Source: Dehalococcoidia bacterium (GTDB lineage: Bacteria > Chloroflexota > Dehalococcoidia > Lucifugimonadales > UBA2985). Taken from it: a stretch of 64,000 nucleotides of DNA. The stretch spans positions 1,884,572 to 1,948,571 of the forward strand of contig OZ242025.1 of assembly GCA_965204895.1 (NCBI GenBank), written 5' to 3'. The first letter of the stretch is position 1. Each line of letters opens with the position of its first letter. Below are positions 3,180 through 49,370 of the stretch, one piece after another. A program made the position numbers and the translations under genes. The notes beneath the pieces are model-generated. The model was given only the letters and a program-made list of their open reading frames with translations. It had not been told where the DNA came from and ran no database searches.

Positions 3180-4874
3180 TCAGCAGAAGGGCAGGCCTCC
3201 CAGGTCAGAATAAACCGGGTCAAGACTTGCCTCCAGAGCCGCCGGCACACATCCGGTCAGCCGGTTGCCATCCAGGTCCAATTCGGTCAGATTGGTGAGG
3301 CTGCCCAGCGCCGGCGGTATCTCTCCGCTCAGCAGGTTGCCGCCCAGACTCAAATCGGCCAGGTTGGAGAGGCTGCCCAGCGCCGCCGGAATCTCTCCGC
3401 TCAACTGGTTGCCTCTCAGGCTCAAATTGGTCAGATTGGAGAGGCTGCCCAGCGCCGGGGGTATCTCTCCGCTCAGCTGGTTGCCAGCCAGGCTTAAAAC
3501 GGTCAGATTGGAGAGGCTGCCCAGCACCGGCGGTATCTCCCCGCTCAGCTGGTTGCCGCCCAGGTACAATGTGGTCAAATTCGAGAGGCTGTTCAACTCT
3601 GTCGGAATCTCCCCGCCCAGCCGGTTGCGATTCAGGTACAAATCGGTCAAATTGGAGAGGCTGCCCAGTGCCGCCGGTATCTCCCCACTCAATTGGTTGC
3701 CCGCCAGATACAGTCTGGTCAGATTGGGGAGTCCGCCCAGCTCCCTCGGAATCTCTCCGTTCAGTTCGTTGCGGCTCAGGTCCAGCCTGATCAGGTTGGA
3801 GAGTCTGCCCATCTCCCTTGGAATCTCCCCGTTCAGTTCGTTGCGGCTCAGGTCCAGCGCGGTCAGATTGGAGAGGCTGCCCAGCTCCAGGGGAATCTCC
3901 CCGCCCAACTGGTTGCGGTTCAGGTCCAGCGCGGTCAGGTTGGAGAGGCTGCCCAGCGCCGGGGGTATCTCCCCGTTCAGCTCGTTGCCGCCCAGGCTCA
4001 AGTTGCTCAGATTGGATAGGCTGCCCAGGCTCGACGGTATCTCTCCGCTCAGCTCGTTGCTGCCCAGCTCCAATACGGTGAGACTGGAGAGGCTGCCAAA
4101 CTCCACTGGAATCTCCCCGCTCAGCTCGTTGCCGTGCAGGTCCAATGTGGAGAGATTGGAGAGGTTGCCAAACTCCGCCGGTATCTCTCCGGTCAACTTG
4201 TTGCCGTGCAGGTCCAATGCGGTCAGATTGGAGAGGCTGCCCAGCGCCGGCGGAATCTCTCCGCTCAGCTCGTTGTGGCCCAGGGCCAATATGGTCAGAT
4301 TGGAGAGGTTGCCCAACTCTGCCGGTATCTCCCCGCTCAGCAGGTTGACGTGCAGGTCTAATGCGGTCAGATTGGAGAGGCCGCCCAGTTCCGCCGGTAT
4401 CTCTCCTGTCAGGCTGTTGTCGTCCAGGTACAATCTGGTCAGATTGGAGAGGTTGCCCAGCTCCGCCGGTATCCGCCCCTTCAACCCGTTGCCGTAGAGT
4501 TCCAATGCAATCACAAAGCCCTGGGAGTCTGTGGTGACGCCGTACCATTCCCCAAGGGGCGCGTCGCTCAGCCAGTTTTTGTTGTTGGCCCAACGCTCTC
4601 CGCCCGCGGCGCGATATAGGGCGGTCAACGCCTCCCGTTCCTCAGCGGCGGTGGGCGCAGCCGTGGGCGCGGTCTTTGGCGCCGACGTGGCAGTGGGCGC
4701 AGCCGTGGGCGTTGGCGCTGGCACCGACGTGGCCGTGGGTGCAGCCGTGGGCGCCGGGGTGGGCGTTGGTTCGGGGGTTGGGGGGGCTTCTTCACCGCAG
4801 GCGGCGGACAACAGCAGAAGAAGCGCGAGGCCCCAAAAGACGGGGACGAGGCCAGGATTGACTCTTCTATTCAC
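3180..4874 (-). CDS. Secreted or surface leucine-rich-repeat protein with plant-type 24-residue LRRs
   Basis: 564 aa. It has an N-terminal signal-like segment (GLALLLLLSAAC), a Pro/Thr/Ala-rich linker and an LRR N-cap-like segment (EREALTALYRAAGGERWANNKNWLSDAPLGEWYGVTT). These are followed by 17 full and 1 terminal repeats of consensus LxLxxNxLSGEIPxxLGxLSNLTx. Confidence 0.85.
   Translation of the reverse strand: MNRRVNPGLVPVFWGLALLLLLSAACGEEAPPTPEPTPTPAPTAAPTATSVPAPTPTAAPTATSAPKTAPTAAPTAAEEREALTALYRAAGGERWANNKNWLSDAPLGEWYGVTTDSQGFVIALELYGNGLKGRIPAELGNLSNLTRLYLDDNSLTGEIPAELGGLSNLTALDLHVNLLSGEIPAELGNLSNLTILALGHNELSGEIPPALGSLSNLTALDLHGNKLTGEIPAEFGNLSNLSTLDLHGNELSGEIPVEFGSLSSLTVLELGSNELSGEIPSSLGSLSNLSNLSLGGNELNGEIPPALGSLSNLTALDLNRNQLGGEIPLELGSLSNLTALDLSRNELNGEIPREMGRLSNLIRLDLSRNELNGEIPRELGGLPNLTRLYLAGNQLSGEIPAALGSLSNLTDLYLNRNRLGGEIPTELNSLSNLTTLYLGGNQLSGEIPPVLGSLSNLTVLSLAGNQLSGEIPPALGSLSNLTNLSLRGNQLSGEIPAALGSLSNLADLSLGGNLLSGEIPPALGSLTNLTELDLDGNRLTGCVPAALEASLDPVYSDLGGLPFC
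3183..4505 (-). repeat. Tandem 72-bp coding repeats (about 18 units) encoding the LRR array
   Basis: The 24-codon periodicity is visible in the protein and at DNA level. It produces long spurious ORFs in other frames (3220-4593, 3265-4497). Confidence 0.85.
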
Positions 4875-4958
4875 GGAGTTACCTCATCAGGAGGAGGCGG
4901 GTGTTGTCCCCACTATACACAAATTCTCGCCTCGTTGAAAGCGCATTTCGGTGGTAGT

Positions 4959-7747: not shown

Positions 7748-8188
7748 CTAGACGGGCTGTACTATCATCTCCAGCAGGCCGTCCGGGAACAGTGACGCCC
7801 GGCCTTGAGTGAACTCAGAAAGGGACACCCACTCCACGCGGAAGGCCCTTCCTCCCTCATCTCCCTGCATTGAGGGCACCTCGTACAGGGAGCTGTCCAC
7901 CAGCTCCGCCTCGTAGATAATGACCAGCTCGTGTTGGGGCACGTCGAAGAGGGTGTAGAAGTTCTCGATGACACCCAGGTACCGGGGCTCGGTGATGTCT
8001 ACCTGGATCTCCTCCCGGAGCTCGCGCCTGATCGCCTCGCGGCTGTGCTCACCAAAGTTGATCTCGCCGCCCAGTGGTCGATAGAAGACGCCCTTGCTGC
8101 CGGCGTAGCCCGGGGCCGCGAGTATCCGGTCACCATGCCGGATGACGCAGATGGTGGAGGCTCTGATGCGTCCCTCTTCCATAGACAC
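7748..8188 (-). CDS. NUDIX hydrolase
   Basis: Nudix box GGEINFGEHSREAIRRELREEIQV (GX5EX7REUXEEXGU). Confidence 0.8.
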   Translation of the reverse strand: MSMEEGRIRASTICVIRHGDRILAAPGYAGSKGVFYRPLGGEINFGEHSREAIRRELREEIQVDITEPRYLGVIENFYTLFDVPQHELVIIYEAELVDSSLYEVPSMQGDEGGRAFRVEWVSLSEFTQGRASLFPDGLLEMIVQPV

Positions 8189-8209: not shown

Positions 8210-8854
8210 CTACCCCTCGCCGACCGCCTCCTTCTGGACAAGCTCAGCCACCTGCTTGAAGACGTCGTAGGGCTGCGCGCCGGAGAAGAAGTAGCGCCCC
8301 ATGATGAAGGACGGGATGCCCCGGACGCCTATGGCAAGGGCCTCCTCGTACTGTGCCTTTGCCTGGGGAGTGTAGTAGCCGGAGTCGAGTTTCTCCTTCA
8401 TCTCCTGGGCGTCCAGTCCCACCTCCTTGCCTATCTCCTGGAGCACAGACAACTCGCCCAGGTTCACGCCGTCCTCCCAGAACCGCTTGTAGCAGGCCTT
8501 GTGGAAAGGCTCAAAGAGGCCCTTGTCCTTGGCGAACTCCGAGGCCTCAAAGGAGAGGGCGCTGTTGGGCGTGATGGGCGCGCGCCGCATGACAAGCCCG
8601 GCGTCAATGGCGGCTTCGCCCAGGTTGCCGGTCAGCAGGGTGCCCGGCTCCGCGCCGTCCCGGGGCTTCCGCACAATGCCCTCAGGCGGGGTGTCGGGCC
8701 GTAGATAGAAGGTCTTGTAGGTTATGTCCAGGGGGAAGTTCTGTTCCAGTTGCTCGAGCCTGGCCAGGCCGACGTAGCACCAGGGTCATATGTAGTCGTA
8801 CCAGACCGTAACGGGAATGACTCCGTTGTCCGTGCCGTGCTCAAAGGTGGTCAT
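8210..8854 (-). CDS. DsbA/FrnE-like thiol:disulfide oxidoreductase with in-frame TGA at the active-site Cys position (candidate selenoprotein, U-P-W-C)
   Basis: Track ORF 8210-8674 lacks the active site. Extending upstream in frame gives MTTFEHGTDNGVIPVTVWYDYI-TGA-PWCYVGLARLEQLEQNFPLDITYKTFYLRPDTPPEGIVRKPRDG. The TGA is at 8786-8788. An AAGGAGA RBS lies 5 nt before the ATG at 8854, and 645 nt is divisible by 3. Confidence 0.6.
8754..8772 (-). promoter_or_regulatory. SECIS-like hairpin downstream of the in-frame UGA
   Basis: The mRNA reads UGA-N13-UCGGCCU-GGCC-AGGCUCGA. This is a 7-bp stem with one bulged U and a GGCC apical loop, starting about 14 nt after the UGA. Confidence 0.4.
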
Positions 8855-9063
8855 GCTATCTCCTTGCGGGGCTTTGTCCGGGAGGGAGGGCTTTGCCCGT
8901 GTTCTTCGCCGCAACGACGATGGCCCTATTCTAGCCTAACTGAGTGGTGATTGCCAGTTGCAGAGGCTCCGCCGTTTACACGCGGCGCTCTGGGTGATAC
9001 TCTCCAATCTATGTTTCCTCACGCTCCACACGGCATAGCGCCAGAGACGGAAGGCCGCTCCTT

Positions 9064-10581: not shown

Positions 10582-11799
10582 CTAGCCGGCGCCTGTGGTT
10601 GACGGCGTGGGAGCGGGCCTCTCCTGGGTCCGGCTGATGCCGATGCGCCGCGCCAGCACCACCTTGGCGATGTTGGTGCTGCCCCCGGCGTGCCGCTGGC
10701 CGGCCGCCGAGCGCTGCCTGACCTCCTGCGCGCCGCCGAAGGGAGCGCCGGGCTCGTCTACGCCAAGGTAGGTGTACAGCCCCATGATCTCCCGTACCCG
10801 CCGGGCGTTGCGAAGGCCCGACTCGCGGCTGTGGACGTTGGCCATGTTGCCCTCGTACCGGATCTCCTGCTTCGCCTGGTACATCCAGTGGGTGCGCTTG
10901 GCCAGCAGGCCCTGCACGTGGGACTCTATGTAGGCCTCCATTGTCCCTTGCTGTAGGACTGGGTCGCTGCCCAGAGTGCCTGAGTCGTTGCTGGCGTACT
11001 TTACGAAGCTCAGCAGGTCGTTCAGGGTCTCGTCGCTGGCAAAAGACCGGCCGCCGCCGCCGTGCTCGAACTCCAGGTGCGTACCCAGCACCTGCCAGCC
11101 CTGGTGGTCGCCGCCGATGAGGTGGTCTCCGGACACGCGCACGTTGTCCAGGAAAATGGCGCGCTTCCTGCCTTCCACCAGCAGGCCCATCTCCTTTATC
11201 TCCAGGCCCTCTGCGGGGATGTCAATGACGAAGTAGCCAAGGTTCCGATGACGAGGCGCGTCCGGGTCCGTGAGCATTGGGCCTACCATCATCTCGGCGT
11301 CCTCGTAGCCGCCGATGAAGACGTTAGAGCCGTTCAGGATCCAGTCGTCGCCGTCGCGGGTGGCCTTGCTCTGGTAGTCGGCGATGTCCGCGCCGGAGTG
11401 TGGCTCAGTGAGCTTCTGCCAGGTCACCTTCTCGCCGGTCAGCAGAGGGCGGAGATACTTCTGCTTCTGCTCCTCCGTGCCCCAGACTAGGATGGTGGGG
11501 AAGATCTGGGTGCTGCTGAAGCGTCGGACGGCCCTGGCCCGCGCGAACTCCTCGTCTATTATGGTTTCGTGGTCGCCGGTCAGCCCGCCGCCGCCGTACT
11601 CCTTGGGGTAGGTCGGCTCAAGCCAGCCCTTCTTCGCCATCTCCTTGTGCTTCTCCCGCCAGAACCAGTACTGCTCCGCGGTGAAATGCTTCTGGTCAAC
11701 GGGATCCCTCATCTCATCCGGGATGTTCTCCTCAAGCCAGGCCCGCACCTCCTTGCGGAACTCCTCCTGCTCTGGGGTGTATGGCAATGCAAAGTCCAT
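10582..11799 (-). CDS. Acyl-CoA dehydrogenase-fold protein, paralogue family A
   Basis: 405 aa. It carries MDFALPYTPEQEEFRKEVRAWLEEN, EYGGGGLTGDHE, LTEPHSGADIADYQSKATRDGDDWILNGSNVFI (ACAD middle domain) and a C-terminal AGQRHAGGSTNIAKVVLARRIGISRTQERPAPTPST. Confidence 0.8.
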   Translation of the reverse strand: MDFALPYTPEQEEFRKEVRAWLEENIPDEMRDPVDQKHFTAEQYWFWREKHKEMAKKGWLEPTYPKEYGGGGLTGDHETIIDEEFARARAVRRFSSTQIFPTILVWGTEEQKQKYLRPLLTGEKVTWQKLTEPHSGADIADYQSKATRDGDDWILNGSNVFIGGYEDAEMMVGPMLTDPDAPRHRNLGYFVIDIPAEGLEIKEMGLLVEGRKRAIFLDNVRVSGDHLIGGDHQGWQVLGTHLEFEHGGGGRSFASDETLNDLLSFVKYASNDSGTLGSDPVLQQGTMEAYIESHVQGLLAKRTHWMYQAKQEIRYEGNMANVHSRESGLRNARRVREIMGLYTYLGVDEPGAPFGGAQEVRQRSAAGQRHAGGSTNIAKVVLARRIGISRTQERPAPTPSTTGAG

Positions 11800-13629: not shown

Positions 13630-13734
13630 TCTGCTCACATAGAGCCTTGACCCACTTCGGCGACGCGGACCGCAAGGTCGTTGGGGGAGGGTGTAAACGC
13701 GCGGTGTTCCGCGCGGGAGTAAAGGAGAGCGCAG

Positions 13735-14988
13735 ATGGATTTCGCATTGCCATACACCCCGGAGCAGGAAGAGTTCCGCCAGGAGGTACGCGCCTGGCTG
13801 AAGGAGAACGTGCCGGCCGATCTGAAGGACCCGGTTGACCCCCGAGACTTCACCCTGGAGCTGGCCGAGAGATGGAAAGAGGTCCACAAGGCCATGGCCA
13901 AGAAGGGCTGGCTGTACCCCACGCTGCCCACTGAGTACGGCGGCGGCGGGCTGACCGGCGACCATGAGACCATCATAGAAGAGGAGATGCACAGGGCCGA
14001 CGTCCCCAGCAACTTCACCTCCGGCAACACGCTGCCCTCCCTCCTTGTCTGGACAACGGAGGAGCAGAAGCAGAAGTTCCTCGTGCCCATTCTGACGGCT
14101 GAGAAGACCTGCTGGAACAAGCTCACGGAGCCTAACGGCGGCGCTGACCTGGCCAACGTCCAGGGCACGGCCACTCGCGACGGCGACGACTGGCTGCTCA
14201 CCGGCGAGCACGTCTTCGTCAGCGGCCGCGGGAAGCCGGGCTTCCTGCTCGGCCCCATGAGGACCGACCCGGACGCCCCTCGCCATCGCAACCTGGGCTA
14301 CTTCATCATCCCCGTTCCCGACTGGGACCCGACGACGGGCGCAACCGGCCTGGACGGGCTGACCATCAAGGAGCAGGACCTGCTAAACGGCCACGACCAG
14401 CACAACATCATCCTGAACGACGTGCGCATCCCCGGCGACCACCTCATCGGTGGCGACCACCAGGGCTGGCAGGTTGCGGGCACGACGATGGAGTCTGAGC
14501 ACGGCGGCCGCGGGCGCGCCTTTCCCACCGATACGCCCATTGAGCACCTGATTGAGTACGTCAAGGACACCAAGGTTGAAGGCGGTTCGCTGGGCGGCGA
14601 CCCCGTCGTACAGCAGACCACGTCAGAGGCCATCATCGAGTCCCACGTCCAGAGCCTGCTGCTCAAGCGGGTGTACGCCATGTACCAGAGCCGCGAGGAG
14701 ATCAGCTGGCACAGCGGCGTGGGCAACGTCCACGGCCGCGAGTCCACCCTCCGCAACGAGCGTCGCATACGGGACGTGTACGGGATGTACTCCCTGCTCA
14801 ACTCCCACGACCCCTCATCGCCCCACGGCGGGCGGCAGGAGGTGAACCACCGGAGCAGGGCGGGGCAGAACCACGCCGGTGGCAGCACCAACATCGCCAA
14901 GGTTGTGCTGGCGCGGCGGATTGGCATCAGCAGGACCCAGGAGAGGCCCGCGCCCACGCCGGCAACGGCCACCAACCTGAGCGTCTAA
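13735..14988 (+). CDS. Acyl-CoA dehydrogenase-fold protein, paralogue family A
   Basis: 417 aa with MDFALPYTPEQEEFRQEVRAWLKEN, EYGGGGLTGDHE, DPDAPRHRNLGYF and a C-terminal AGQNHAGGSTNIAKVVLARRIGISRTQERPAPTPATAT. Confidence 0.8.
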   Translation: MDFALPYTPEQEEFRQEVRAWLKENVPADLKDPVDPRDFTLELAERWKEVHKAMAKKGWLYPTLPTEYGGGGLTGDHETIIEEEMHRADVPSNFTSGNTLPSLLVWTTEEQKQKFLVPILTAEKTCWNKLTEPNGGADLANVQGTATRDGDDWLLTGEHVFVSGRGKPGFLLGPMRTDPDAPRHRNLGYFIIPVPDWDPTTGATGLDGLTIKEQDLLNGHDQHNIILNDVRIPGDHLIGGDHQGWQVAGTTMESEHGGRGRAFPTDTPIEHLIEYVKDTKVEGGSLGGDPVVQQTTSEAIIESHVQSLLLKRVYAMYQSREEISWHSGVGNVHGRESTLRNERRIRDVYGMYSLLNSHDPSSPHGGRQEVNHRSRAGQNHAGGSTNIAKVVLARRIGISRTQERPAPTPATATNLSV

Positions 14989-16040: not shown

Positions 16041-16431
16041 CGGCTGAGTGGTCTCCTTTCAAAGGGAGGCGCCCCGCAAGAATTGTCCTAGTAGTTATAG
16101 CCGAATTCCATATCCGTAGTCAATAGAAATATTTGAGATAGTGTATCAATATCCTGGAAAGGACTGGTAGGACGACTTCGAGGATGCCCGTCTCCCGGTT
16201 ATGATGTGAAAACCATCACATAATCGACATATATGGGTTATTTAGGTATACTATATGTAGGAGTTAGTACGGTACACGCGCACTAGCGCGACGAAAAGAG
16301 GTGTATGGGTTGTCGGGCGGCTGGCTTTGGATGTGCTGCCCTGTTCCTTTCCTGGAATCGTATCAATTGTATCCAGAATGGCCTATCTCCAGCAGTATTC
16401 TCCGCAGCAATCTAATTTTGGGAGGTGTGTA

Positions 16432-17349
16432 TTGAAGCAGGGTAGATTGTCGATCAGGGCGCTGAGAGGCGCTATTAAGCCGCTGTGGCTTGTTGCGATC
16501 CTGACGGCGGGAACGCTTCTGGTCGCAGCTTGTGCCGGCGGCGTAGGGCCCGCTGGGCCGCAGGGGCCTTCAGGGTCCGCAGGTCCGGCAGGTGTGCAGG
16601 GGCCGGCGGGTCTTGCAGGGCCTGTTGGACCCACGGGAGCCATTGGGCCACAGGGTCCCGTCGGACCGCGAGGCCCCATCGGGCCGCAAGGTGAGCAGGG
16701 GCCTGCAGGTTTGGACGCAATGGCCATGATGCCCAAGCCAAGCGATAAGATGGTCACTTTGTCCATCACAAACCTGACTCGTGGCCAGATTCTTTCGCCG
16801 GTATTTGTTGCACGGCACGACAAGTATGCGGGGCCACTGTATACGCTGGGCCAGCCGGCGAGTGAGTCCCTGGCCAAGATGGCGGAGGACGCCGATGCGT
16901 CCGGCCTGCTGGCGGACTGGTTGCCTGAGGGCAACGACAGCATAAGCGAGGCTATGGTGGTAACCCATGACGGAGGCCCAATACCGCCCGGCGCCACTGT
17001 GACTACAAGCTTTGAGGTCACGGACGGAAACCATCTGGTTTCATTTGCCAGCATGCTCGTCACCACAAACGACGCCTTCATAGGGGCGAGCGGGCTGGAC
17101 GTCTCAACGCCGCGCACCGTTAACCTGAACGCATACGACTCCGGCAGCGAGACCAACAGCGAGAGCTGTGCCTACATCCCCGGACCGCCTTGCGGCAACC
17201 ACGTTAAGGACGAGGCGGACGCCGAGGGTTACGTCCACGTCCATGCGGGCATTCACGGCGGGGAGGGCTCTGACCTTGCCCCGGCCATCCACGACTGGCG
17301 GAACCCCGTAGCCCGGCTGACCATAGTGGTGGAGGATATCGGAGGCTAG
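16432..17349 (+). CDS. Lipoprotein with collagen-like GXY repeats and a spondin_N-like domain
   Basis: The TTG at 16432 is preceded by GGAGGTG. A signal/lipobox follows ([17 protein letters not shown]). Then come 18 Gly-X-Y triplets ([55 protein letters not shown]). The rest carries [18 protein letters not shown] and [11 protein letters not shown], which are typical of spondin_N. Confidence 0.6.
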
Positions 17350-17692: not shown

Positions 17693-18919
17693 GTGGACTT
17701 TGCGCTGCCGTACACGGAAGAGCAGGAACGGTTCCGACAGGAGGTGAGAGCCTGGCTGGCGGAGAACGTAGACGAGGACATGAAGGAGCCCGTGGATCCT
17801 GAGATGGACTTCACGGACGAGCTTGGCGAATACTGGAGGGAGAAGTACAAGGAGATAGCGGCCAAGGGCTGGCTGTATCCTACCTTTCCCACGGAGTACG
17901 GAGGCGGCGGTCTCACGGGCGACCACGAGACCATAATAGAGGAGGAGTTCAACCGGGCCAGGATTCCGGCCCACGTGAACAACATCCTGGCCGTGCCCGC
18001 CATTATGGTGTGGGGCACGGAGGAGCAGAAGCGCAAGTTCCTGCCGCCCATCCTCAGCGCGGAGGAGGTCTGCTGGCAGAAGTTCACGGAGCCGAAGGGC
18101 GGCGCCGACTTGGCGGACTACCAGAGCAAGGCCGTCCGCGACGGCGACGACTGGCTGCTGACCGGCTCCAACGTGTTCATCGGCGCACACGGCAAGACCG
18201 AGTGGCTCTTCGGCCCGATGATGACCGACCCGGACGCGCCCAGACACCGGAACCTGGGGTTCTTCATGATACCCGTTCCGTCCGATGGCCTCACCATCAA
18301 CGAGATGGACCTGCTCATCGGCCACAGGAAGCGGGCCATATTCCTGGACAACGTGCGGGTCCCGGGCGACCACCTCATCGGCGGCGACCACCAGGGCTGG
18401 CAGGTTGCCAACACCAGCCTTGAGCAGGAGCACGGCGGTCGAGGTCGGGCATTCCCCAGGGACAAGGTTGTGGACAACCTGGTGGACTTCGCCAAGGGAA
18501 CGTCGCAGGACGGCGGCGTAGTCGGCAGCGACCCCGTGGCGCAGCAGTCGACGATGGAGAACGTAATCGAGTCCCACATCCACAGCCTGCTGCTCAAGCG
18601 CACCTTCTGGATGTACCAGAACCAGATGCAGATCAACTACGAGGGCAACGTGGCGAACGTGTACGGCAGGGAGTCCAGCCTGCGCATCGCCTGGAGGGTG
18701 AGGGACGTAATGGGGATGTACGCCCTTCTGGGCACCAAGGAGCCGGGCGCTCCCCACGAGGGAGCTCAAGAGGTCAATCAGCGAGGCAGGGCCGGCCAGA
18801 ACCACGCCGGTGGCAGTACGAACATCGCCAAGGTCGTCCTTGCTCGCAGGATTGGAGTAAGCCGCACCAAGGAGCAGGCAGCGCCCACTCCTTCGACGGC
18901 TACGAGTCACGGCAGCTAG
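17693..18919 (+). CDS. Acyl-CoA dehydrogenase-fold protein, paralogue family A (operon gene 1)
   Basis: 408 aa with MDFALPYTEEQERFRQEVRAWLAEN and a C-terminal AGQNHAGGSTNIAKVVLARRIGVSRTKEQAAPTPSTATSHGS. Confidence 0.8.
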   Translation: MDFALPYTEEQERFRQEVRAWLAENVDEDMKEPVDPEMDFTDELGEYWREKYKEIAAKGWLYPTFPTEYGGGGLTGDHETIIEEEFNRARIPAHVNNILAVPAIMVWGTEEQKRKFLPPILSAEEVCWQKFTEPKGGADLADYQSKAVRDGDDWLLTGSNVFIGAHGKTEWLFGPMMTDPDAPRHRNLGFFMIPVPSDGLTINEMDLLIGHRKRAIFLDNVRVPGDHLIGGDHQGWQVANTSLEQEHGGRGRAFPRDKVVDNLVDFAKGTSQDGGVVGSDPVAQQSTMENVIESHIHSLLLKRTFWMYQNQMQINYEGNVANVYGRESSLRIAWRVRDVMGMYALLGTKEPGAPHEGAQEVNQRGRAGQNHAGGSTNIAKVVLARRIGVSRTKEQAAPTPSTATSHGS

Positions 18920-18969
18920 AGGCTGCCAAAATACAGGAACGGCAGGGCACATTAGAAAGGAGGAGACCA

Positions 18970-20193
18970 ATGGACTTTGCATTGCCCTATACACCGGAGC
19001 AGGAGGCGTTTCGAGCGGAGGTACGGGCCTGGCTTGAGGAGAACATCCCTGAAGAGATGAAGGAGCCCGTAGACGGACGAGAGTTCTCCAAGGAGCAGTA
19101 TCTGTTCTGGCGGGAGAAGCACCGGGAGCTGGCGGCCAAGGGCTGGCTGTACCCCACGCATCCCACGGAGTACGGCGGGGGCGGCCTGACCGGCGACCAC
19201 GAGACCATCCTCCAGGAGGAGATGCACAGGGCCAGGGCTGCCAATCCGCCCAACGCGGGGATAATCCTGTCCACGCTGCTTGTGTGGGCCACGGAGGAGC
19301 AGAAGCAGCAGTTCCTTGTCCCCATGCTCAAGGGCGAGATGCAGTCGTGGCAGAAGTTCACGGAGCCCAAGGGCGGCGCGGACCTGGCCGACTACCAGAG
19401 CCGAGCGGTACGCGACGGCGACGACTGGCTGCTGACCGGATCCAACGTGTTCGTGAGCGGACGGCCGAGGCCTGAGTGGAACGTAGGGCCCAACTACCTC
19501 TGGGGCCCCATGCTGACCGACCCGGACGCGCCTCGCCATCGGAACCTGGGATACTTCATGATCCCGGTGCCGTCTGAGGGACTTGAGATCAAGGAGCAGA
19601 ACCTGCTCAACGGCCACGACCAGCACGCCATATTCCTGGACAACGTGCGGGTACCGGGCGACCACCTCATCGGCGGCGACCACCAGGGCTGGCAGGTTGC
19701 CAGCACCACCCTTGAGCAGGAGCACGGCGGCCGCGGCCAGGCGTTCCCCAGCGACGAGGTAGTGGACAACCTGGTGGAGTTCGCCAAGAACGTCAACGGC
19801 TCCGACCCGCTGATTCAGCAGACCACCATGGACGCCGTCATCGACGCCCACAGGGACAGCCTGCTGGCGAAGCGCACCTACTGGATGTATCAGAGCCGGA
19901 TGGACATCAACTTCGAGGGCAACGTAGCCAACGTCCACAACCGCGAGCACGACATGCGCAACGCATGGAGGGTGCGGGACGTTATGGGGATGTACTCCCT
20001 TGTGGGCACGAAGGAGCCGGGCGCTCCTCACGGCGGCGCGCAGGAGGTCAACCAGCGCGGCAAGGCCGGCCAGAGGCACGCCGGTGGCAGCACCAACATC
20101 GCCAAGGTGATCCTGGCCCGCCGCATCGGCGTCAGCCGCACCAAGGAGCGAGCTGCCCCCACGCCCTCCACCGCCACCAGCCACGGCGGCTAG
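18970..20193 (+). CDS. Acyl-CoA dehydrogenase-fold protein, paralogue family A (operon gene 2)
   Basis: 407 aa, about 70% identical by eye to the preceding gene. Same N- and C-terminal signatures (…SRTKERAAPTPSTATSHGG). Confidence 0.8.
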   Translation: MDFALPYTPEQEAFRAEVRAWLEENIPEEMKEPVDGREFSKEQYLFWREKHRELAAKGWLYPTHPTEYGGGGLTGDHETILQEEMHRARAANPPNAGIILSTLLVWATEEQKQQFLVPMLKGEMQSWQKFTEPKGGADLADYQSRAVRDGDDWLLTGSNVFVSGRPRPEWNVGPNYLWGPMLTDPDAPRHRNLGYFMIPVPSEGLEIKEQNLLNGHDQHAIFLDNVRVPGDHLIGGDHQGWQVASTTLEQEHGGRGQAFPSDEVVDNLVEFAKNVNGSDPLIQQTTMDAVIDAHRDSLLAKRTYWMYQSRMDINFEGNVANVHNREHDMRNAWRVRDVMGMYSLVGTKEPGAPHGGAQEVNQRGKAGQRHAGGSTNIAKVILARRIGVSRTKERAAPTPSTATSHGG

Positions 20194-21491: not shown

Positions 21492-21636
21492 GATCGACAC
21501 AGGAAGCAGCCGGGGATTGGGGCTTCGTCCAGAGGCCCCAATCCCTGCGCAGCCAAACTACGCCAGAATTGGCTATTGAATAGCGGGCCTTGGGTACCCG
21601 CGCGCCTGAAGCGGACTAACTATTTGGGGGGAAGGC

Positions 21637-22893
21637 TTGGACTTCGAGTACCAATATACTGAGGAACAGGAGCGGTTCCGGGCCGAGGTGGGCGCCTGGC
21701 TGGATGCAAATCTGCCCCAGGAGCTCAAAGACGCCGGGGACTGGCGCGACCTGGACTCAGCCGGGTGGGAACAGAGCAAGGCCTTCCAAATGAAGCTGGG
21801 CGAAAGGGGATGGCTGGCTCCCACAGACCCCGTCGAGCGGGGAGGGGGCGGTCTCTCAGCGGACTCCGCCCTTGTACTGATAGAGGAGCTGGGCAAGAGG
21901 GGGATGCGCTGGGCCCTGGAGCAGGGATCGTCATCCCTCAGAACGGCTCTCAAGCAGTGGGGCACTGAGGAGCAGCAGGACAGGTACCTGCCTGTCATAT
22001 CCCGGGGCCAGGCCACTCTCTGGCATCTCTTGATTGAGCCGGGCGCAGAGCTGGACTTGGACCAGCTGCAGATTCAGGCGAACCTGGACGGCGACGACTA
22101 CGTTCTCAACGGAGAGGGCGTGTTCGCAGGGCCGGGGCCAAGGCCGGACTACCTCTGGGCGCTGACGGTCACCGACCCCGAAGCTGAGCCACCCGCTACC
22201 GCTACGTTCCTGGTCCCCGCCGGCATGGAGGGACTGGAGATACACACTCCCGACACCCTTGTGGCCGGCGAGTCCCACCGGATCACCTTTGACAACGTGT
22301 GGGTGCCCTCCATCTGCCTGCTTGGCGGAGATGGCGAGGGCTGGTCAGTAATGCAGGACTCCCTTCTGGGAGACCCCCTGCTGGAGTACCCGCCGGAGCA
22401 GGACGAGGACGTGGCGAACCTTATCAAGTACGCCTCGGAGACCACCAAGTACGGTGTGGCGCTGAGCAAGCAGCCCTTCTACCAGCAGATGCTCATGGAG
22501 GTGTACACCAACAGCGAGATCGTACGCATATTCCGCATACGGAACGCCTGGATGGCCAGCACAGGCCAGAATCTCACGTACCACCAGGCGGAGACGGAGT
22601 TGCTGGAGAAGCAGGCGGCCCTCCGCCTGTCCCGGGTGGTCAGGGAGATAATGGGGATATTCGCCCTGCTGGGGGCGGATGACCCGATGGCCCCGGAGAG
22701 GGGCAAGTTCCAGGGGCACCAGAAGCGGAGCCTGTTCCGGCAGAACCCCACCGCCACGGGCGGGTTGGAAGTCCAGTCCGCCGCGATTGCGAAGCACCTG
22801 GGCTTCGACCCCCTGGAGGCCAAGGGGGCCCTTACCTTCCAGGACGAAGAAGAGGAAGAAGAGGAGGAGGAGGCTAGCGCACTGCCGTCGTAA
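21637..22893 (+). CDS. Divergent acyl-CoA dehydrogenase-fold protein with poly-Glu tail (operon gene 4)
   Basis: 418 aa with a TTG start. MDFEYQYTEEQERFRAEVGAWLDAN and WGTEEQQDRYLPVISRGQ resemble the family, but the rest is divergent. It ends FQDEEEEEEEEEASALPS. Confidence 0.65.
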   Translation: MDFEYQYTEEQERFRAEVGAWLDANLPQELKDAGDWRDLDSAGWEQSKAFQMKLGERGWLAPTDPVERGGGGLSADSALVLIEELGKRGMRWALEQGSSSLRTALKQWGTEEQQDRYLPVISRGQATLWHLLIEPGAELDLDQLQIQANLDGDDYVLNGEGVFAGPGPRPDYLWALTVTDPEAEPPATATFLVPAGMEGLEIHTPDTLVAGESHRITFDNVWVPSICLLGGDGEGWSVMQDSLLGDPLLEYPPEQDEDVANLIKYASETTKYGVALSKQPFYQQMLMEVYTNSEIVRIFRIRNAWMASTGQNLTYHQAETELLEKQAALRLSRVVREIMGIFALLGADDPMAPERGKFQGHQKRSLFRQNPTATGGLEVQSAAIAKHLGFDPLEAKGALTFQDEEEEEEEEEASALPS

Positions 22894-22995
22894 TGATGTA
22901 TAATCGGCTAGGCGCTGGAGTCGGACTGTGCAGAAGAGCATCGTCTGAGCCGGCTAACCAATATGGGAAAGAGCTAAATTTAGTAGGAGGTCACC

Positions 22996-24135
22996 ATGGA
23001 TCTATCGCTTACCGAAACCCAGACAATTCTTAGGGATGCGGCTAACAACGTCATGGAGGCTGAACTTCCCAAGCAGCGCGTTCGGGAAGTGGACGAGAGC
23101 GAAACGGGGTTCAACCAGCCCCTCTGGGAGAGAATGGCTAACCTGCAGTGGCTGGGAATGGTCATCCCGAACGAGCACGGCGGAACCGGAAACGACTACA
23201 CAACCCTGGCGGTCCTCTTTGAGGTGCTGGGATATCACGCCTGCTCAAGCCCGTTCCTGGACTCGTCCGTGCTCAGCGCGAACATCATCCTGGAAGCCGG
23301 CAGCGACGCGCAGAAGAGCAGCATTCTTCCTGCAATTGCAAGAGGCCAGCAGATCCTCACCACCGCCATCACCGAGCCCGAGTACGCCTGGGGTCCCGGC
23401 GCAGTCAAGATGTCGGCCTCCAGCAGTGGCGGCGGATACACTCTCAACGGCACCAAGGTGTTCGTGCCCTGGGCCCACGTAGCGGACCAGCTTCTTGTGG
23501 TGGCCCGCACCGGCAGCGGCGCTAATGCCGCCGACGGCATCTCAGTATTCCTGGTGGACAGGAACGCCAGCGGCGTAACCGTCCGGCAGCACAGCGGCTG
23601 GCTGGGCGACAAGGTCTGCGAAGTGAACTTCAACAACGTCCAGGTCGGCGCTGACGGCGTGGTTGGGGCGGCCGGCGGCGCTTGGGGCGCAGTTGAGAAG
23701 TCCATGGACAGAGCCACCTCCGTCCTCAACGCCTACATGGCGGGCGGCGCCCAGAGGGCGTACGAGATGTGCCGGGACTACAGCACCGAGCGCATCGCCT
23801 TCGGTGTGCCCATAGGAACGTTCCAGCGCGTGCAGGACCACATCATCGTTTCCTTGACCGAGGCCGAAGCCTCCAAGTGGACGGCTTACGAGGCTCTGTG
23901 GAGACTGGACAGCGGCAGGGACGACGCGGCAGTTGGCATCTCCATGGCCAAGGCCGTTGCCAGCGACGGCTTCAACAAGGCATGCGACGCCTCCCATAAC
24001 GTCCATGCCGGCGTGGGCGTAGACCTTGACCTGGGTCTCACCCACTACACCGCCCGGGCCCGCACATTCCAGCACTACCTGGGCGACGCCACCTACCATC
24101 GCCGCCGCATGGCGGAGCTGATGGAACTGGGCTAG
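22996..24135 (+). CDS. Acyl-CoA dehydrogenase, canonical length (operon gene 5)
   Basis: 379 aa with ITEPEYAWGPGAVKMSASSSGGGYTLNGTKVFVPWA and FGVPIGTFQRVQDH. The C-terminus is YLGDATYHRRRMAELM, like actinobacterial FadE-type subunits. Confidence 0.8.
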   Translation: MDLSLTETQTILRDAANNVMEAELPKQRVREVDESETGFNQPLWERMANLQWLGMVIPNEHGGTGNDYTTLAVLFEVLGYHACSSPFLDSSVLSANIILEAGSDAQKSSILPAIARGQQILTTAITEPEYAWGPGAVKMSASSSGGGYTLNGTKVFVPWAHVADQLLVVARTGSGANAADGISVFLVDRNASGVTVRQHSGWLGDKVCEVNFNNVQVGADGVVGAAGGAWGAVEKSMDRATSVLNAYMAGGAQRAYEMCRDYSTERIAFGVPIGTFQRVQDHIIVSLTEAEASKWTAYEALWRLDSGRDDAAVGISMAKAVASDGFNKACDASHNVHAGVGVDLDLGLTHYTARARTFQHYLGDATYHRRRMAELMELG

Positions 24136-25542: not shown

Positions 25543-25660
25543 CTCTGGTGGTTTTGGCGTGGTGGAACCACCCGTACCCATCTCGAACACGGAAGTGAAA
25601 CACCTCAGCGCCGACGATACTGCCCTGGCAACGGGGTGGGAAAATAGGTCACTGCCAGGG
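25543..25660 (+). rRNA. rrf: 5S ribosomal RNA
   Basis: CCCATCTCGAACACGGAAGTGAAACACCTCAGCGCCGACGATACTG…GGGAAAATAGGTCACTGCCAGGG matches conserved 5S loops. Terminal helix I pairs CTCTGGTGGT with ACTGCCAGGG. The ends are accurate to about 2 nt. Confidence 0.9.
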
Positions 25661-31126: not shown

Positions 31127-31326
31127 GGTATATCCGCAGTTGCCCCTTGCTCCAAGTCCCGCCCGGCTAGCCCTGGAGGAGACAAGGGCTGATATAATGA
31201 ATAGCAAAGAGGTAGAGGGGTTGAGGGGAAGAAAGTGGTATGAGAAGGTGGAAGGGGCATTGCCCGAAACCTCTGTGGCTTCGGCTATCTGGTTGAAGCC
31301 CCGGCAACCGAAGGTGAGGTGACGTC

Positions 31327-31575
31327 ATGACGGACTGGAGCAAGTGCCCGGCAGTGGAAAGCGTACCCGGCAGGTTGAGCGGAGCCTGGGTGTTCACCGG
31401 CACCAGGCTGCCCGTGTCAAGCCTCTTTGAAAACCTGGAGAGCGGAGCCACAGTGAAGGAATACGTGGAATGGTTCGATGGGGCGGAGGAGTGGAAGGTC
31501 AGGGCCGTATTGAAGCACGTGACCGATTCCCTGAAGGCAGCGGTCCCGGCAGGGAGCCTTGAGAATCCTGTTTGA
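31327..31575 (+). CDS. DUF433-domain protein (putative antitoxin-like partner)
   Basis: GAWVFTGTRLPVSSLFENLESGATVKEYVEWF matches the DUF433 pattern. It overlaps the next gene by 17 nt. Confidence 0.6.
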   Translation: MTDWSKCPAVESVPGRLSGAWVFTGTRLPVSSLFENLESGATVKEYVEWFDGAEEWKVRAVLKHVTDSLKAAVPAGSLENPV

Positions 31576-31882
31576 CCAGGGAACCCCAAGGCTGATGTCG
31601 CTCCGGAATGTTCTTCCCGAACACACGGTGGACACCTCCGCTGGGAGAGGGTGGTCGGAGTTGAGCAACGGCGACCTGCTGGATATTGCGGAGAGTGAGG
31701 GGTACGAGCTTTTGATTACCACCGACCAGAATATACGGTATCAGCAAGACCTCGCGGGCAGACGGCTGGCCGTCATTGTACTGCTTTCTACCGCGTGGCC
31801 TTACGCCCGTTCGAGAACAGAGGACATCCGCGCTGCCATTAACGAGATACAGCCGGGTGAGTTGAGAGAGATCCCTATCTGA
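31559..31882 (+). CDS. DUF5615/PIN-like domain protein (putative toxin-like partner)
   Basis: MRILFDQGTP…LLITTDQNIRYQQ is typical of the PIN-like DUF5615 family, which is usually paired with DUF433. Confidence 0.55.
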   Translation: MRILFDQGTPRLMSLRNVLPEHTVDTSAGRGWSELSNGDLLDIAESEGYELLITTDQNIRYQQDLAGRRLAVIVLLSTAWPYARSRTEDIRAAINEIQPGELREIPI

Positions 31883-37134: not shown

Positions 37135-37312
37135 TAACCTAGAAGCATGGCGCGAAGTGCAGCAGGCAAATGAACAGCACATCCTTGACTTGATTGCTCA
37201 ACAGGCAACGCTGTCCGCAAACTTTATAGCTGCAATCAATGAGTGCACAGCACGCCTCGACCGAATCGAGGCATTATTGCAAGACGCCAATGCTCAGAAT
37301 GGCACAGGCTAG
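37112..37312 (+). CDS. Small predicted coiled-coil protein (IS cargo)
   Basis: Internal ATG of track ORF 37022-37312, giving MALEQRVSNLEAWREVQQANEQHILDLIAQQATLSANFIAAINECTARLDRIEALLQD. It overlaps the previous small ORF by 23 nt. Confidence 0.3.
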   Translation: MALEQRVSNLEAWREVQQANEQHILDLIAQQATLSANFIAAINECTARLDRIEALLQDANAQNGTG

Positions 37313-38265
37313 GCTATCAAGTCCTGATAGGGCAGGCGCTTGCCTACTGAACCCTGAGCCATAGCCGTCATTTGGTCGGTAGTGTCCAGGGGACGGGCAT
37401 TGTGCCTGCCCGAAAACTCCCCAACATACCGCCCCAGGTGCTTGGTGCTCACATGGTGGTACGTACCATCAATCCCACGCTTCAACATCGCCCACAGCGA
37501 TTCTATGCCGTTGGTGTGCGCCTGTTGCCGTACATACTCCCCTGCACTATGGCGGACCACTTTGTGCAGTCTGTTCGATAGTCCAGCATAACTAGCGTGT
37601 TCGTCCGTGTAGACGGCTGTACCTGGTTCGGTGTGTTCCTGGACGAAACCCTGAAGAGAAGGCTTGTCGGTGAAGGCTATGGGCTGGGCTGTGACCTTGC
37701 CCGTCTCCCTGTCCTTTGCACCTATCACGGCCGCTTTGCCAGCAATGCCGCGCCCGGCGTTCAGCTTCTTGCTCTTGTGCTTGTTCTTCTCTTTCCCGCC
37801 TATGTACGTTTCGTCCACTTCGGTCGGGCCTGCAAACTTCTCAGTGGCATAATCCCAGGTCAACCGCAGGCGGTGTGCCAAGTGCCAGGCTGACTTCTGA
37901 GTGATACCCAACTCGCGGTGTAGCTTCATGCTGGATATGCCCTTGAGATTGGTATTGAACAGGTAGAAGGCCAGGCCCCACTTGCTCAGGGGTAGCTTGG
38001 AGTCGTGCATGATAGTACCCGTCTTGACCGTGAAGTCCTTTTTGCAATCGTTGCAATGGTAGGTCGTGGTCTTGCGCCCGTTGGTTCGGGTACTGACGTT
38101 CAGGCTTCCACACTCCACGCAGGCTATTCCGTTGGGCCAGCGTCGGGCTACAAACCAGGCTTCGGCCTGTTCCTCCGTGCTGAATAGCTGGGCTACTTCC
38201 ATCAGGGTCATGCCCTTGCGGTGTGCCTTGCCTGGTGCTTTGCCGTGTTCGCTCATAGTGTCCAC
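37309..38265 (-). CDS. IS1595-family (ISXO2-like) transposase
   Basis: 318 aa. N-terminal zinc ribbon ARRWPNGIACVECGS…YHCNDCKKDFTVKTGT, then a DDE region with VDETYIGGKEKNKH, VYTDEHASY and TNGIESLWAMLKR. Confidence 0.85.
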   Translation of the reverse strand: MDTMSEHGKAPGKAHRKGMTLMEVAQLFSTEEQAEAWFVARRWPNGIACVECGSLNVSTRTNGRKTTTYHCNDCKKDFTVKTGTIMHDSKLPLSKWGLAFYLFNTNLKGISSMKLHRELGITQKSAWHLAHRLRLTWDYATEKFAGPTEVDETYIGGKEKNKHKSKKLNAGRGIAGKAAVIGAKDRETGKVTAQPIAFTDKPSLQGFVQEHTEPGTAVYTDEHASYAGLSNRLHKVVRHSAGEYVRQQAHTNGIESLWAMLKRGIDGTYHHVSTKHLGRYVGEFSGRHNARPLDTTDQMTAMAQGSVGKRLPYQDLIA

Positions 38266-49037: not shown

Positions 49038-49076
49038 ACTCGGCTAATTCAAGATCTGACTTTGAATTAGCCGAGT
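49038..49076. other. Perfect 15-bp inverted repeat (terminator of the hydratase gene or vapB operator)
   Basis: ACTCGGCTAATTCAA-N9-TTGAATTAGCCGAGT lies between the stop at 49028 and the vapB-like RBS. No T tract follows it. Confidence 0.45.
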
Positions 49077-49106
49077 ATACGAGGCTCTGCCAGCTGGGAG
49101 GTGCAA

Positions 49107-49370
49107 ATGAACCGGCTTACGCTCCGAGGCTTTGATGACAATTTGGCCGAAAGAATCCGGTCCCTCGCCAAGCAAGAGGGAACGTCGCTGAATCAGGCTG
49201 CGCTTAAACTGCTTAGGAAGGGTGCTGGGCTGCCGGATGAGAGCCGGCCTCCAGACATAGTGGGGACTTCTCTGGATCACCTTATAGGTTCGTGGACAAA
49301 GGACGAAGCTGACGAATTTGAATCTGCTCTCAAAGATTTTGAGACCATTGAAGAGTCAATCTGGCAGTGA
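49107..49370 (+). CDS. vapB: Ribbon-helix-helix antitoxin (VapB/FitA-like)
   Basis: ATG 5 nt after GGAGG. MNRLTLRGFDDNLAERIRSLAKQEGTSLNQAALKLL matches the RHH pattern. It overlaps the PIN gene by 4 nt. Confidence 0.65.
   Translation: MNRLTLRGFDDNLAERIRSLAKQEGTSLNQAALKLLRKGAGLPDESRPPDIVGTSLDHLIGSWTKDEADEFESALKDFETIEESIWQ

What the first reader, a model, noticed from the sequence alone, without database searches (positions are those of the whole stretch)
8210..8854. DsbA/FrnE-like gene with an in-frame TGA at the CPWC active-site Cys: candidate selenoprotein with a SECIS-like hairpin
The track ORF (8210-8674) starts after the redox motif and would encode an inactive fragment.
- Reading upstream in the same frame gives MTTFEHGTDNGVIPVTVWYDYI-[TGA]-PWCYVGLARLEQL. 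This is the DsbA/FrnE signature D-x-x-C-P-W-C-Y with TGA (8786-8788) in the first Cys column.
- The extended ORF starts at an ATG (8854) preceded by AAGGAGA at ideal spacing.
- About 14 nt after the UGA, the mRNA can fold into UCGGCCU-GGCC-AGGCUCGA. This is a 7-bp stem with a bulged U and a G-containing apical loop, the general architecture of bacterial SECIS elements such as E. coli fdhF.
- Cys-to-Sec replacement in thiol-oxidoreductase CxxC motifs is the classic selenoprotein pattern.
- No selA/selB/selC/selD genes are in this window.
Basis: partly seen in the sequence, partly recalled or inferred. Interest (0 to 1): 0.8.

Follow-up and report, generated by a model that had tools for sequence, protein, structure and literature searches.

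The report
Selenocysteine FrnE/DsbA-like oxidoreductase gene
This is a real gene for a thiol-disulfide enzyme whose active-site cysteine is replaced by selenocysteine (encoded by an in-frame TGA), but it belongs to a selenoprotein family known since 2005, so it is mainly an annotation correction.

Summary
On the minus strand one frame runs from ATG 8854 to TAG 8210 (214 codons) with a single in-frame TGA at 8788-8786. That TGA sits at the first Cys of a D-Y-I-[C]-P-W-C-Y thioredoxin-fold motif.

It is neither a pseudogene nor a sequencing error:
- All 25 species-level Dehalococcoidia/SAR202 genomes with an orthologue (48-96% identity) have TGA at this column.
- So do 69 of 77 metagenomic relatives. 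The other 8, plus two protein-database relatives, have TGT/TGC.
- The peptide upstream of the TGA is conserved while its codons vary synonymously.
- TGA is an ordinary stop in this genome.

The downstream hairpin meets the published bacterial SECIS constraints. In this GC-rich window that is weak evidence, because half of synonymous recodings also pass. Support comes from relatives: lowest synonymous variation in the gene, retention in AT-richer lineages, some compensatory pairs, and greater excess stability in Sec forms than in Cys forms.

The Sec machinery could not be searched in the same genome. Published work shows Dehalococcoidia MAGs with the Sec system and 46-49 selenoproteins.

The family ("DsbA-like, UxxC, COG2761/PF01323") is already described.

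The parts
8210..8854 (-). Complete coding sequence of a 214-residue FrnE/DsbA-like thiol-disulfide oxidoreductase with one Sec codon (residue 23). It has no N-terminal signal peptide by inspection.
   Evidence: Pfam DSBA E=1.7e-27. Orthologues in 25 genomes cover query residues 1-214 across the TGA.
8859..8865 (-). Shine-Dalgarno-like AAGGAGA, 4 nt upstream of the ATG
   Evidence: The same GGAG-containing context is seen upstream of the ATG in the closest orthologues (translated as ..QGDSM..).
8852..8854 (-). Start codon ATG of the full-length gene
8786..8788 (-). In-frame TGA read as selenocysteine (U23), first position of the U-P-W-C redox motif (motif codons 8788-8777)
   Evidence: TGA in 96 loci, TGT/TGC in about 10. 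It aligns to the first Cys of FrnE's CPWC. The equivalent Cys24 of P0009 sits at the N-cap of helix alpha1 in the model.
8754..8772 (-). Core SECIS-like hairpin: 5' arm 8772-8766, apical loop GGCC 8765-8762, 3' arm 8761-8758 and 8756-8754, bulged U at 8757
   Evidence: The loop starts 20 nt after the UGA with GG in the first two loop positions.
8746..8783 (-). Extended stem-loop (alignment columns 6-43 counted from the T of TGA), about -13.2 kcal/mol, containing the core hairpin
   Evidence: The lower stem is not conserved in register among orthologues.
8210..8212 (-). Stop codon TAG
8928..8957 (-). Sigma-70-like promoter match (CTGGCA-18-TAGAAT) upstream of the full-length ORF. It is a consensus match only.
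   Evidence: 1 site found vs 0.2 expected

Best explanation
The locus encodes a cytoplasmic FrnE-type (DsbA-fold, COG2761-like) thiol-disulfide oxidoreductase. Its N-terminal nucleophile in the CxxC motif is selenocysteine (U-P-W-C).

Shown here:
- The reading frame is continuous across one TGA.
- The TGA and the peptide on both sides are conserved in about 96 loci, with Cys in a minority.
- TGA is otherwise a stop in this genome.

Inferred mechanism:
- During translation, the UGA at 8788-8786 is recoded by SelB·GTP·Sec-tRNA(Sec).
- SelB is recruited by the mRNA hairpin 13-34 nt downstream (GG-containing apical loop 20 nt after the UGA). This happens in competition with RF2.
- The resulting selenolate attacks substrate disulfides or sulfenates and forms a selenenylsulfide with Cys26.
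- Recycling is presumably by thioredoxin or a low-molecular-weight thiol.

The public gene calls of about 154-190 aa that start after the motif are annotation artefacts.
For: Conservation of the TGA:
- TGA at the column in 25/25 species-representative genomes at 48-96% identity, in L029, and in 69/77 metagenome loci down to 33% identity.
- In an all-loci scan this is the only conserved in-frame TGA with protein-like flanks (94 loci).

Sec/Cys alternation:
- Cys codons occur in P0009/L026, P0046/L030 and 8 metagenome loci.
- L026 and L030 nest inside Sec clades.

Upstream region is translated:
- Upstream codons vary synonymously (0.58-0.72) while the peptide PVTVWYDYI is conserved.

TGA is otherwise a stop:
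- TGA ends 19 of 47 long ORFs in the window.
- In L007-L013 the same gene also ends with TGA.

Fold and active site:
- Pfam DSBA. FrnE is the best sequence match (5CNW, E=6e-20) and the best fold match (TM 0.78).
- The column is at the N-cap of helix alpha1.

RNA element:
- It meets all four published bSECIS constraints (PMC13188914).
- The 8 lowest-synonymous-diversity windows of 195 span the UGA and hairpin.
- Sec forms are more stable than synonymous recodings in 94% of 69 sequences (mean z -1.4). Nine Cys forms have mean z -0.5; MWU p=0.016.
- AT-richer lineages keep the hairpin although only 0.5-4% of recodings would.
- Three pairs show compensatory changes, and the covariation score exceeds 500/500 shuffles.

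Lineage:
- Dehalococcoidia MAGs are reported with the Sec system and 46-49 selenoproteins (PMC13326102).
- Chloroflexi carry tRNA-Sec (PMC5389517).
- SelA and SelB are enriched in sponge-symbiont bins (PMC5649159).
Against: - No selA/selB/selD/tRNA-Sec lies in the window or within 10 kb of the gene in 25 orthologous loci. The rest of the genome could not be searched, so Sec capacity of this organism rests on literature for the class.
- In the window alone the hairpin is not exceptional (50% of recodings pass).
- Formal covariation is modest, and a mutually exclusive helix (columns 5-10 with 25-30) scores almost as well.
- Only 31/69 Sec forms pass my strict implementation of the bSECIS constraints. 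One clade (GGA...UUG GAC CAG type) uses a different fold.
- No Rfam SECIS family matches.
- There is no direct evidence of selenium incorporation.
Confidence: 0.9

Rival explanations
1. The UGA is decoded, but not as Sec. Possibilities are Cys insertion by a tRNA-Sec-like tRNA-Cys(UCA) with a SelB paralogue, or low-level near-cognate read-through.
For: selC* tRNA-Cys(UCA) with SelB* systems exist in other anaerobic phyla (PMC5389517). Sec machinery was not demonstrated in this genome. Cys at this column is functional in natural relatives.
Against: selC* has not been reported in Chloroflexi, whereas tRNA-Sec has. Dehalococcoidia MAGs are reported with large selenoproteomes. In the reported cases selC* genomes also carry the full Sec system. 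Trp or Gly at the nucleophile position would inactivate a CxxC enzyme.
Confidence: 0.05
2. The annotated short ORF is the real product: a truncated DsbA-domain protein starting downstream of the TGA. The 22-codon upstream ORF would then be a separate leader peptide or untranslated.
For: Gene callers produce 154-190 aa products for nearly all close relatives.
Against: The truncated product lacks strand beta1 and the whole redox motif. The called starts differ between orthologues (M/L at different codons). The upstream peptide and the PWC residues are conserved in frame in 96 loci under purifying selection. The RBS and promoter-like site precede the ATG at 8854.
Confidence: 0.02
3. Nonsense pseudogene or sequencing/assembly error (true codon TGC/TGT).
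For: A single base separates TGA from TGC/TGT. The window is one assembly, and its reads could not be inspected.
Against: The identical TGA appears in independent assemblies of 25 species and 69 metagenome contigs from many projects. There are no other frame disruptions. Purifying selection acts on both sides of the TGA.
Confidence: 0.01
4. Genome-wide reassignment of TGA (translation table 4 or 25).
For: One database protein (P0003) was translated with W at the column.
Against: P0003's codon is TGA on a 793-bp contig that was evidently called with code 4. TGA terminates 19 of 47 long ORFs in the window and terminates this same gene in L007-L013.
Confidence: 0.005

Closest known systems
DsbA-like selenoprotein, form 1 (UxxC; COG2761 / PF01323). 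First described from the Sargasso Sea metagenome (Zhang, Fomenko & Gladyshev 2005, PMC1088965) and listed in PMC13188914.
   Same: Stand-alone DSBA-domain protein. Sec is the first residue of UxxC. A stem-loop with G in a small apical loop lies downstream of the UGA. It comes from marine metagenomes and has Cys homologues.
   Different: I could not compare directly with the published accessions (AACY01178397, NIP15863.1), so identity of the clade is inferred rather than shown. In this clade Sec is the majority state (about 90% of loci) across Dehalococcoidia/SAR202.
FrnE (DR_0659) of Deinococcus radiodurans, a cytoplasmic disulfide oxidoreductase/isomerase (PDB 5CNW, 5COH, 5CP1)
   Same: Best sequence match (E=6e-20) and best fold match (TM 0.78). 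Same C-P-W-C-Y active-site context, thioredoxin fold with a helical insertion, and no signal peptide.
   Different: FrnE has Cys rather than Sec. It is 260 aa, and the deposited C239S mutant points to a functional C-terminal Cys. The window protein is 214 aa and ends ...KEAVGEG without any C-terminal Cys. Identity is only about 29%.
Bacterial SECIS consensus model (bSECISearch model as summarised in PMC13188914, Fig. 2)
   Same: 4-nt apical loop (allowed 3-9), at least 4 bp upper stem, GG in the first two loop positions, 20 nt between UGA and loop (allowed 16-37), and stem-loop energy about -13 kcal/mol (threshold -7.5).
   Different: The bulged U is on the 3' arm. From memory, the E. coli fdhF element has its bulged U on the 5' side and a GU loop motif. 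No curated Rfam SECIS model matches. Some orthologues adopt another register or fold.
DsbG-like / Rcas_1661 family thioredoxin-like (seleno)lipoprotein (NCBIfam NF041057)
   Same: A thioredoxin-superfamily UxxC selenoprotein found in Chloroflexi. It gives a weak C-terminal similarity hit.
   Different: Score 38.6 bits against a cut-off of 190, so the window protein is not a member. It has no lipoprotein signal.
[quoted passage not shown]
   Same: PF01323 domain, and the local motif D-x-x-U-P is also present here.
   Different: Form 2 is named as a crotonase-family protein. The window protein is a stand-alone DSBA domain with the second Cys (UxxC).

Membership tests
Bacterial selenoprotein gene (Sec-UGA recoding) | In-frame UGA aligned with a conserved Cys in homologues (Sec/Cys pair) | tested here: met
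   TGT in L026, TGC in L030 and 8 further Cys forms, against 96 TGA forms. The column aligns with the first Cys of FrnE's CPWC.
Bacterial selenoprotein gene (Sec-UGA recoding) | UGA and coding sequence on both sides conserved in orthologues (upstream part under purifying selection) | tested here: met
   25/25 genomes and 69/77 metagenome loci. Synonymous variation with a conserved peptide upstream. It is the only protein-like conserved TGA cluster.
Bacterial selenoprotein gene (Sec-UGA recoding) | bSECIS stem-loop just downstream: 3-9 nt loop, at least 4 bp upper stem, G in the first two loop positions, 16-37 nt from the UGA, energy <= -7.5 kcal/mol | tested here: met
   The window meets all four constraints (criteria). 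Discriminating power in this GC-rich window is low, because 50% of recodings pass. 31/69 Sec forms and 1/9 Cys forms pass my implementation.
Bacterial selenoprotein gene (Sec-UGA recoding) | Hairpin under selection (covariation or excess stability) | tested here: inconclusive
   Supportive: (low-GC lineages p<=0.03; covariation 0/500 shuffles). Against: only 3 compensatory pairs, a competing helix scoring similarly, and no phylogenetic correction.
Bacterial selenoprotein gene (Sec-UGA recoding) | selA, selB, selD and tRNA-Sec present in the same genome | not testable with these tools
   Absent from the window and from +/-10 kb of 25 loci. Class-level support comes from the literature only.
Bacterial selenoprotein gene (Sec-UGA recoding) | Selenium actually incorporated at the UGA position | not testable with these tools
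   Needs 75Se labelling or mass spectrometry.
DSBA-like thioredoxin domain family (Pfam PF01323), FrnE/COG2761 subgroup | Domain match above the curated threshold | tested here: met
   96.9 bits against a 25.6 cut-off, residues 15-201.
DSBA-like thioredoxin domain family (Pfam PF01323), FrnE/COG2761 subgroup | CxxC-type redox motif at the N-terminus of helix alpha1, following strand beta1 | tested here: met
   In the model of the 65%-identical Cys orthologue P0009 (pLDDT 94): strand 13-20, C24-P-W-C27, helix 25-40.
DSBA-like thioredoxin domain family (Pfam PF01323), FrnE/COG2761 subgroup | Thioredoxin fold with inserted helical domain, closest to FrnE | tested here: met
   Foldseek top hits are FrnE 5COH/5CO3/5CNW (TM 0.75-0.78), then SCO1869 3GL5.
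DSBA-like thioredoxin domain family (Pfam PF01323), FrnE/COG2761 subgroup | FrnE-specific C-terminal Cys-containing tail | tested here: not met
   The window protein ends at residue 214 (..QKEAVGEG) with no C-terminal Cys. FrnE chains are 260 aa, and a C239S mutant is deposited. The protein is therefore FrnE-like, not an FrnE orthologue.
Rcas_1661 family thioredoxin-like (seleno)lipoprotein (NF041057) | Score above the NCBIfam cut-off | tested here: not met
   38.6 bits against 190.
Rfam SECIS families | Covariance-model match | tested here: not met
   No hit at the gathering threshold over the window, nor at E<=10 on 8650-8870.

The most novel reading that the evidence does not exclude
A sizeable subset of orthologues keeps the UGA but does not fit the canonical bSECIS constraints, or folds in a different register (the GGA-CUG-GCC-AGG-UUG-GAC-CAG clade). 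Dehalococcoidia/SAR202 might therefore use a second, non-canonical SECIS solution or a more permissive SelB. If so, this nearly Sec-fixed, widely sampled gene family would be a natural series for defining what SelB recognises in that lineage.
Probability: 0.15. Interest if true: 0.5.

Novelty: new member of a known kind. Interest (0 to 1): 0.25.

Why it matters
The practical value is annotation. Standard gene callers truncate this gene in essentially every public relative: about 58 of the 61 closest protein clusters start after the active site. As a result, a functional redox enzyme is recorded as an inactive fragment. The gene also marks its host as a Sec-decoding organism. Sec is the dominant state of this enzyme across marine Dehalococcoidia/SAR202, with occasional reversions to Cys. 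This fits the recently reported very large selenoproteomes in the class and points to selenium dependence of cytoplasmic thiol-disulfide chemistry in an abundant ocean lineage. It does not reveal a new mechanism.

Tried and rejected
- Dinucleotide-shuffle z-score of the hairpin in the window: not significant. Replaced by a synonymous-recoding null.
- RNAalifold on 22 orthologues returned a competing helix with no covariation. A fixed-register pair count on 22 sequences was no better than shuffles. Only the 64-sequence set gave a signal.
- Rfam at the gathering threshold and at E<=10: no SECIS hit.
- tblastn with E. coli SelA/SelB/SelD sequences recalled from memory (probes only) against the window and 25 loci. 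The single hit was a TypA/BipA GTPase in L020, not SelB.
- ARAGORN on the window and 25 loci: no tRNA-Sec.
- Scans for further selenoprotein genes found nothing convincing. They used a GC-frame filter, gaps between ORFs and conserved TGAs across all loci. The hits were off-frame artefacts.
The natural Cys orthologue P0009 was used instead.
- The metagenome scan with the diverse alignment A3 failed for lack of a conserved stretch. It was repeated with A1.
- BSepDB supplementary files are not held, so I could not check whether the exact MAGs are listed.
- An operon link to the downstream NUDIX gene was rejected as a deep association. It is conserved only in L001-L006.
- The window's Ogt-like gene, from a family with known Sec forms, has Cys (IVPCHRV).

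Full report
**1. What is in the sequence**

On the minus strand a Shine-Dalgarno-like AAGGAGA (8865-8859) precedes an ATG at 8854-8852. The frame then reads MTTFEHGTDNGVIPVTVWYDYI, TGA (8788-8786), PWCYVGLARLEQL..., and continues without further interruption to TAG at 8212-8210. The mechanical ORF list gives only 8210-8674 (GTG start, 154 aa), which begins after the redox motif. With the TGA read as Cys, the 214-residue product matches Pfam DSBA (PF01323) over residues 15-201 (E=1.7e-27, 96.9 bits against a cut-off of 25.6). A sigma-70-like promoter match lies at 8957-8928, upstream of the long ORF.

**2. Not a pseudogene, an error or a code change**

- A protein search returned 121 relatives. 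Nearly all close ones (59-92% identity) are 155-190 aa and start just after the column. This is what gene callers produce when they meet a stop there.
- The exceptions are informative. P0009 has Cys (DYICPWCY). P0003 has W, and its DNA (L029) shows TGA, so it was called with code 4 on a 793-bp contig.
- A scan of one genome per species found 25 orthologous loci, all Dehalococcoidia/SAR202/Chloroflexota MAGs at 48-96% identity. All 25 have TGA at exactly this column.
- A metagenome scan added 80 loci. Of the 77 with the motif, 69 have TGA (identity down to 33%) and 8 have TGT/TGC.
- Upstream of the TGA the peptide P-V-T-V-W-Y-D-Y-I is conserved while its codons differ synonymously in 58-72% of sequence pairs. 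The upstream segment is therefore translated and under purifying selection.
- TGA ends 19 of 47 long ORFs in the window. In orthologues L007-L013 the same gene also terminates with TGA, so decoding must be context-specific.
- An unbiased search of all fetched loci for conserved in-frame TGAs found this gene as by far the largest cluster (94 loci). It is the only cluster with protein-like sequence on both sides.
- In a neighbour-joining tree, the Cys forms L026 and L030 nest inside Sec clades, and the most divergent clade mixes both states. Sec is the majority and probably the ancestral state, with several independent switches.

**3. The protein**

- The closest solved structure by sequence is Deinococcus radiodurans FrnE (5CNW/5CP1, E=6e-20). 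The UGA column aligns with the first Cys of FrnE's C-P-W-C.
- The edited window sequence was not accepted for structure prediction, so I modelled the natural Cys orthologue P0009 (65% identical). The model has pLDDT 94 and pTM 0.88. It shows strand 13-20, then C24-P-W-C27 at the N-cap of helix 25-40. This is the canonical nucleophile position in a thioredoxin fold.
- Foldseek against the PDB ranks the FrnE entries first (TM 0.75-0.78), then SCO1869, YjbH, HCCA isomerases and kappa-GSTs.
- The protein has no signal peptide by inspection and lacks FrnE's longer Cys-bearing C-terminus. It is FrnE-like, not an FrnE orthologue.
- No NCBIfam model claims it. There is only a sub-threshold hit to the Rcas_1661 (seleno)lipoprotein family.

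**4. The RNA element**

Numbering starts at the T of TGA as column 1. The window's minimum-free-energy fold extends it to columns 6-43.

The published bacterial SECIS consensus has four constraints (PMC13188914):
- an apical loop of 3-9 nt;
- an upper stem of 4-16 bp;
- a G in the first two loop positions;
- 16-37 nt from the UGA, with energy <= -7.5 kcal/mol.

The window element meets all four: loop 4 nt, GG, 20 nt spacing, about -13.2 kcal/mol.

In this window alone that is weak evidence. The fold is no better than dinucleotide shuffles, and 100 of 200 synonymous recodings of the same peptide with the gene's GC-rich codon usage also pass.

The comparative evidence is better:
- The eight 14-codon windows with the lowest synonymous diversity in the whole gene (0.26-0.35 against a mean of 0.50) all span the UGA and hairpin. 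Leu+7 is CTG in 27/27 sequences, whereas other Leu columns vary at 0.64-0.80.
- Across 69 unique Sec-form sequences, 94% fold more stably than their synonymous recodings (mean z -1.4). Nine Cys forms average z -0.5 (Mann-Whitney p=0.016, not corrected for phylogeny).
- In AT-richer lineages (L012, L020-L023, L029) the hairpin is kept at -7 to -11 kcal/mol, where codon usage would give about -3.
- Compensatory changes occur in divergent clades: C-G to U-A in L012/L094/L096, C-G to A-U in L103/L109/L110, and G-C to C-G in L107.
- On 64 sequences the fixed-register hairpin has 79% of cells paired (<=54% when slid) and a covariation score above all 500 shuffles.

Against this:
- A mutually exclusive helix (columns 5-10 with 25-30) scores nearly as well.
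- One clade uses a different fold.
- Only 31/69 Sec forms (and 1/9 Cys forms) pass my strict implementation of the constraints.
- No Rfam SECIS model matches, even at E<=10.

I regard the SECIS assignment as likely but not proven.

**5. Sec machinery**

None is in the window or within 10 kb of the gene in the 25 genomes. There is no tRNA-Sec. tblastn with E. coli SelA/B/D probes recalled from memory found only a TypA/BipA GTPase.

The literature fills part of the gap:
- BSepDB requires at least two Sec-pathway genes per species. It lists two Dehalococcoidia MAGs among the ten most selenoprotein-rich bacteria, with 49 and 46 genes. One of them has the same UUID-style isolate naming as L002-L015 (PMC13326102).
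- Chloroflexi carry (8/4) tRNA-Sec (PMC5389517).
- SelA and SelB co-occur in most sponge-symbiont bins (PMC5649159).

**6. Comparison with what is known**

- 'DsbA-like protein' (COG2761, UxxC, nine sequences) was reported as a new selenoprotein family from the Sargasso Sea in 2005, with a predicted SECIS (PMC1088965).
- It was found in Anaeromyxobacter, Desulfovibrio and Desulfotomaculum in 2006 (PMC1794560), and in 41 organisms in 2016 (PMC5029168).
- A 2026 review lists it as 'DsbA-like protein form 1, PF01323, UxxC' (PMC13188914).
- The window gene is a stand-alone UxxC DSBA-domain protein and fits form 1, not the crotonase-type form 2.

It is therefore a new, publicly unannotated member of a known kind. 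I could not show that this exact clade is the one already catalogued.

**7. Verdict**

Novelty and interest are low. The main value is correcting a systematic mis-annotation and flagging the host as a Sec user.

The surrounding window is ordinary chromosome: DnaE, DnaK, a Clp ATPase, ribosomal protein S1, pyrB/pyrC, many acyl-CoA dehydrogenases and MFS transporters.

Noticed in passing
window 25544-25660 (+): A 5S rRNA gene (84.5 bits) stands alone. Rfam reports no 23S or 16S anywhere in the 64-kb window, so the 5S gene appears unlinked from the large rRNAs.
   Followed up: no
window 59911-60026 (+), with 60539-62095 and 61972-63438 (+): A PyrR-binding leader (54.6 bits, just above the gathering score) lies upstream of aspartate carbamoyltransferase-like and dihydroorotase-like ORFs. 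The ATCase ORF also shows a PyrI_C metal-binding hit at residues 404-442.
   Followed up: partly
window 3180-4883 (-) and 16261-17349 (+): Eukaryote-like proteins: a 567-aa leucine-rich-repeat protein, and a protein with collagen triple-helix repeats plus a Spondin_N domain. These are typical of host-associated (for example sponge) symbionts. Several related MAGs have host-project style names.
   Followed up: no
window 10582-11799, 13723-14988, 18424-20193, 21610-22893, 22987-24135, 56308-57564: Six acyl-CoA-dehydrogenase paralogues in 64 kb, most matching only the N-terminal and middle domains. This is a paralogue expansion of the kind described for SAR202.
   Followed up: no
window 37309-38265 (-): IS1595-family (ISXO2-like) transposase with a zinc ribbon.
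   Followed up: no
window about 31318-31882 (+), 49071-49370 (+), 49959-50289 (-): Small ORFs that look like toxin-antitoxin components by eye: a DUF433-like/PIN-like pair, a ribbon-helix-helix protein and a HicB-like protein. They were not checked with HMMs.
   Followed up: no
L007-L013, about 10643 (+): In these orthologues the same DsbA-like gene ends with TGA. One mRNA therefore uses UGA once as Sec and once as stop.
   Followed up: partly
loci L007-L011, L013-L016, L018, L019 and similar, columns 16-39 after the TGA: One clade (codons GGA CUG GCC AGG UUG GAC CAG) weakens the window-type hairpin. It has instead a CUGGU/ACCAG lower stem with a different apical loop, which is a second structural solution downstream of the same UGA.
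   Followed up: partly
window 8488-8490 (-), residue Cys121 (FHKACY): A third Cys is conserved in the close Sec clade (FH[KR]xCY) but absent from distant Cys-form relatives. It is a possible resolving residue.
   Followed up: no
window 7748-8188 (-): A NUDIX hydrolase gene starts 22 bp after the selenoprotein stop on the same strand. The adjacency is conserved only in the closest clade, L001-L006.
   Followed up: yes
window 55410-56153 (-): An Ogt-like methyltransferase (PF01035), from a family with known Sec forms, has Cys here (IVPCHRV).
   Followed up: yes
L026-L028 (groundwater and other metagenomes): The Cys-form orthologue P0009 sits in a different neighbourhood (Na+/H+ exchanger upstream; MoxR AAA ATPase and DUF58 downstream) from the Sec forms.
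   Followed up: no
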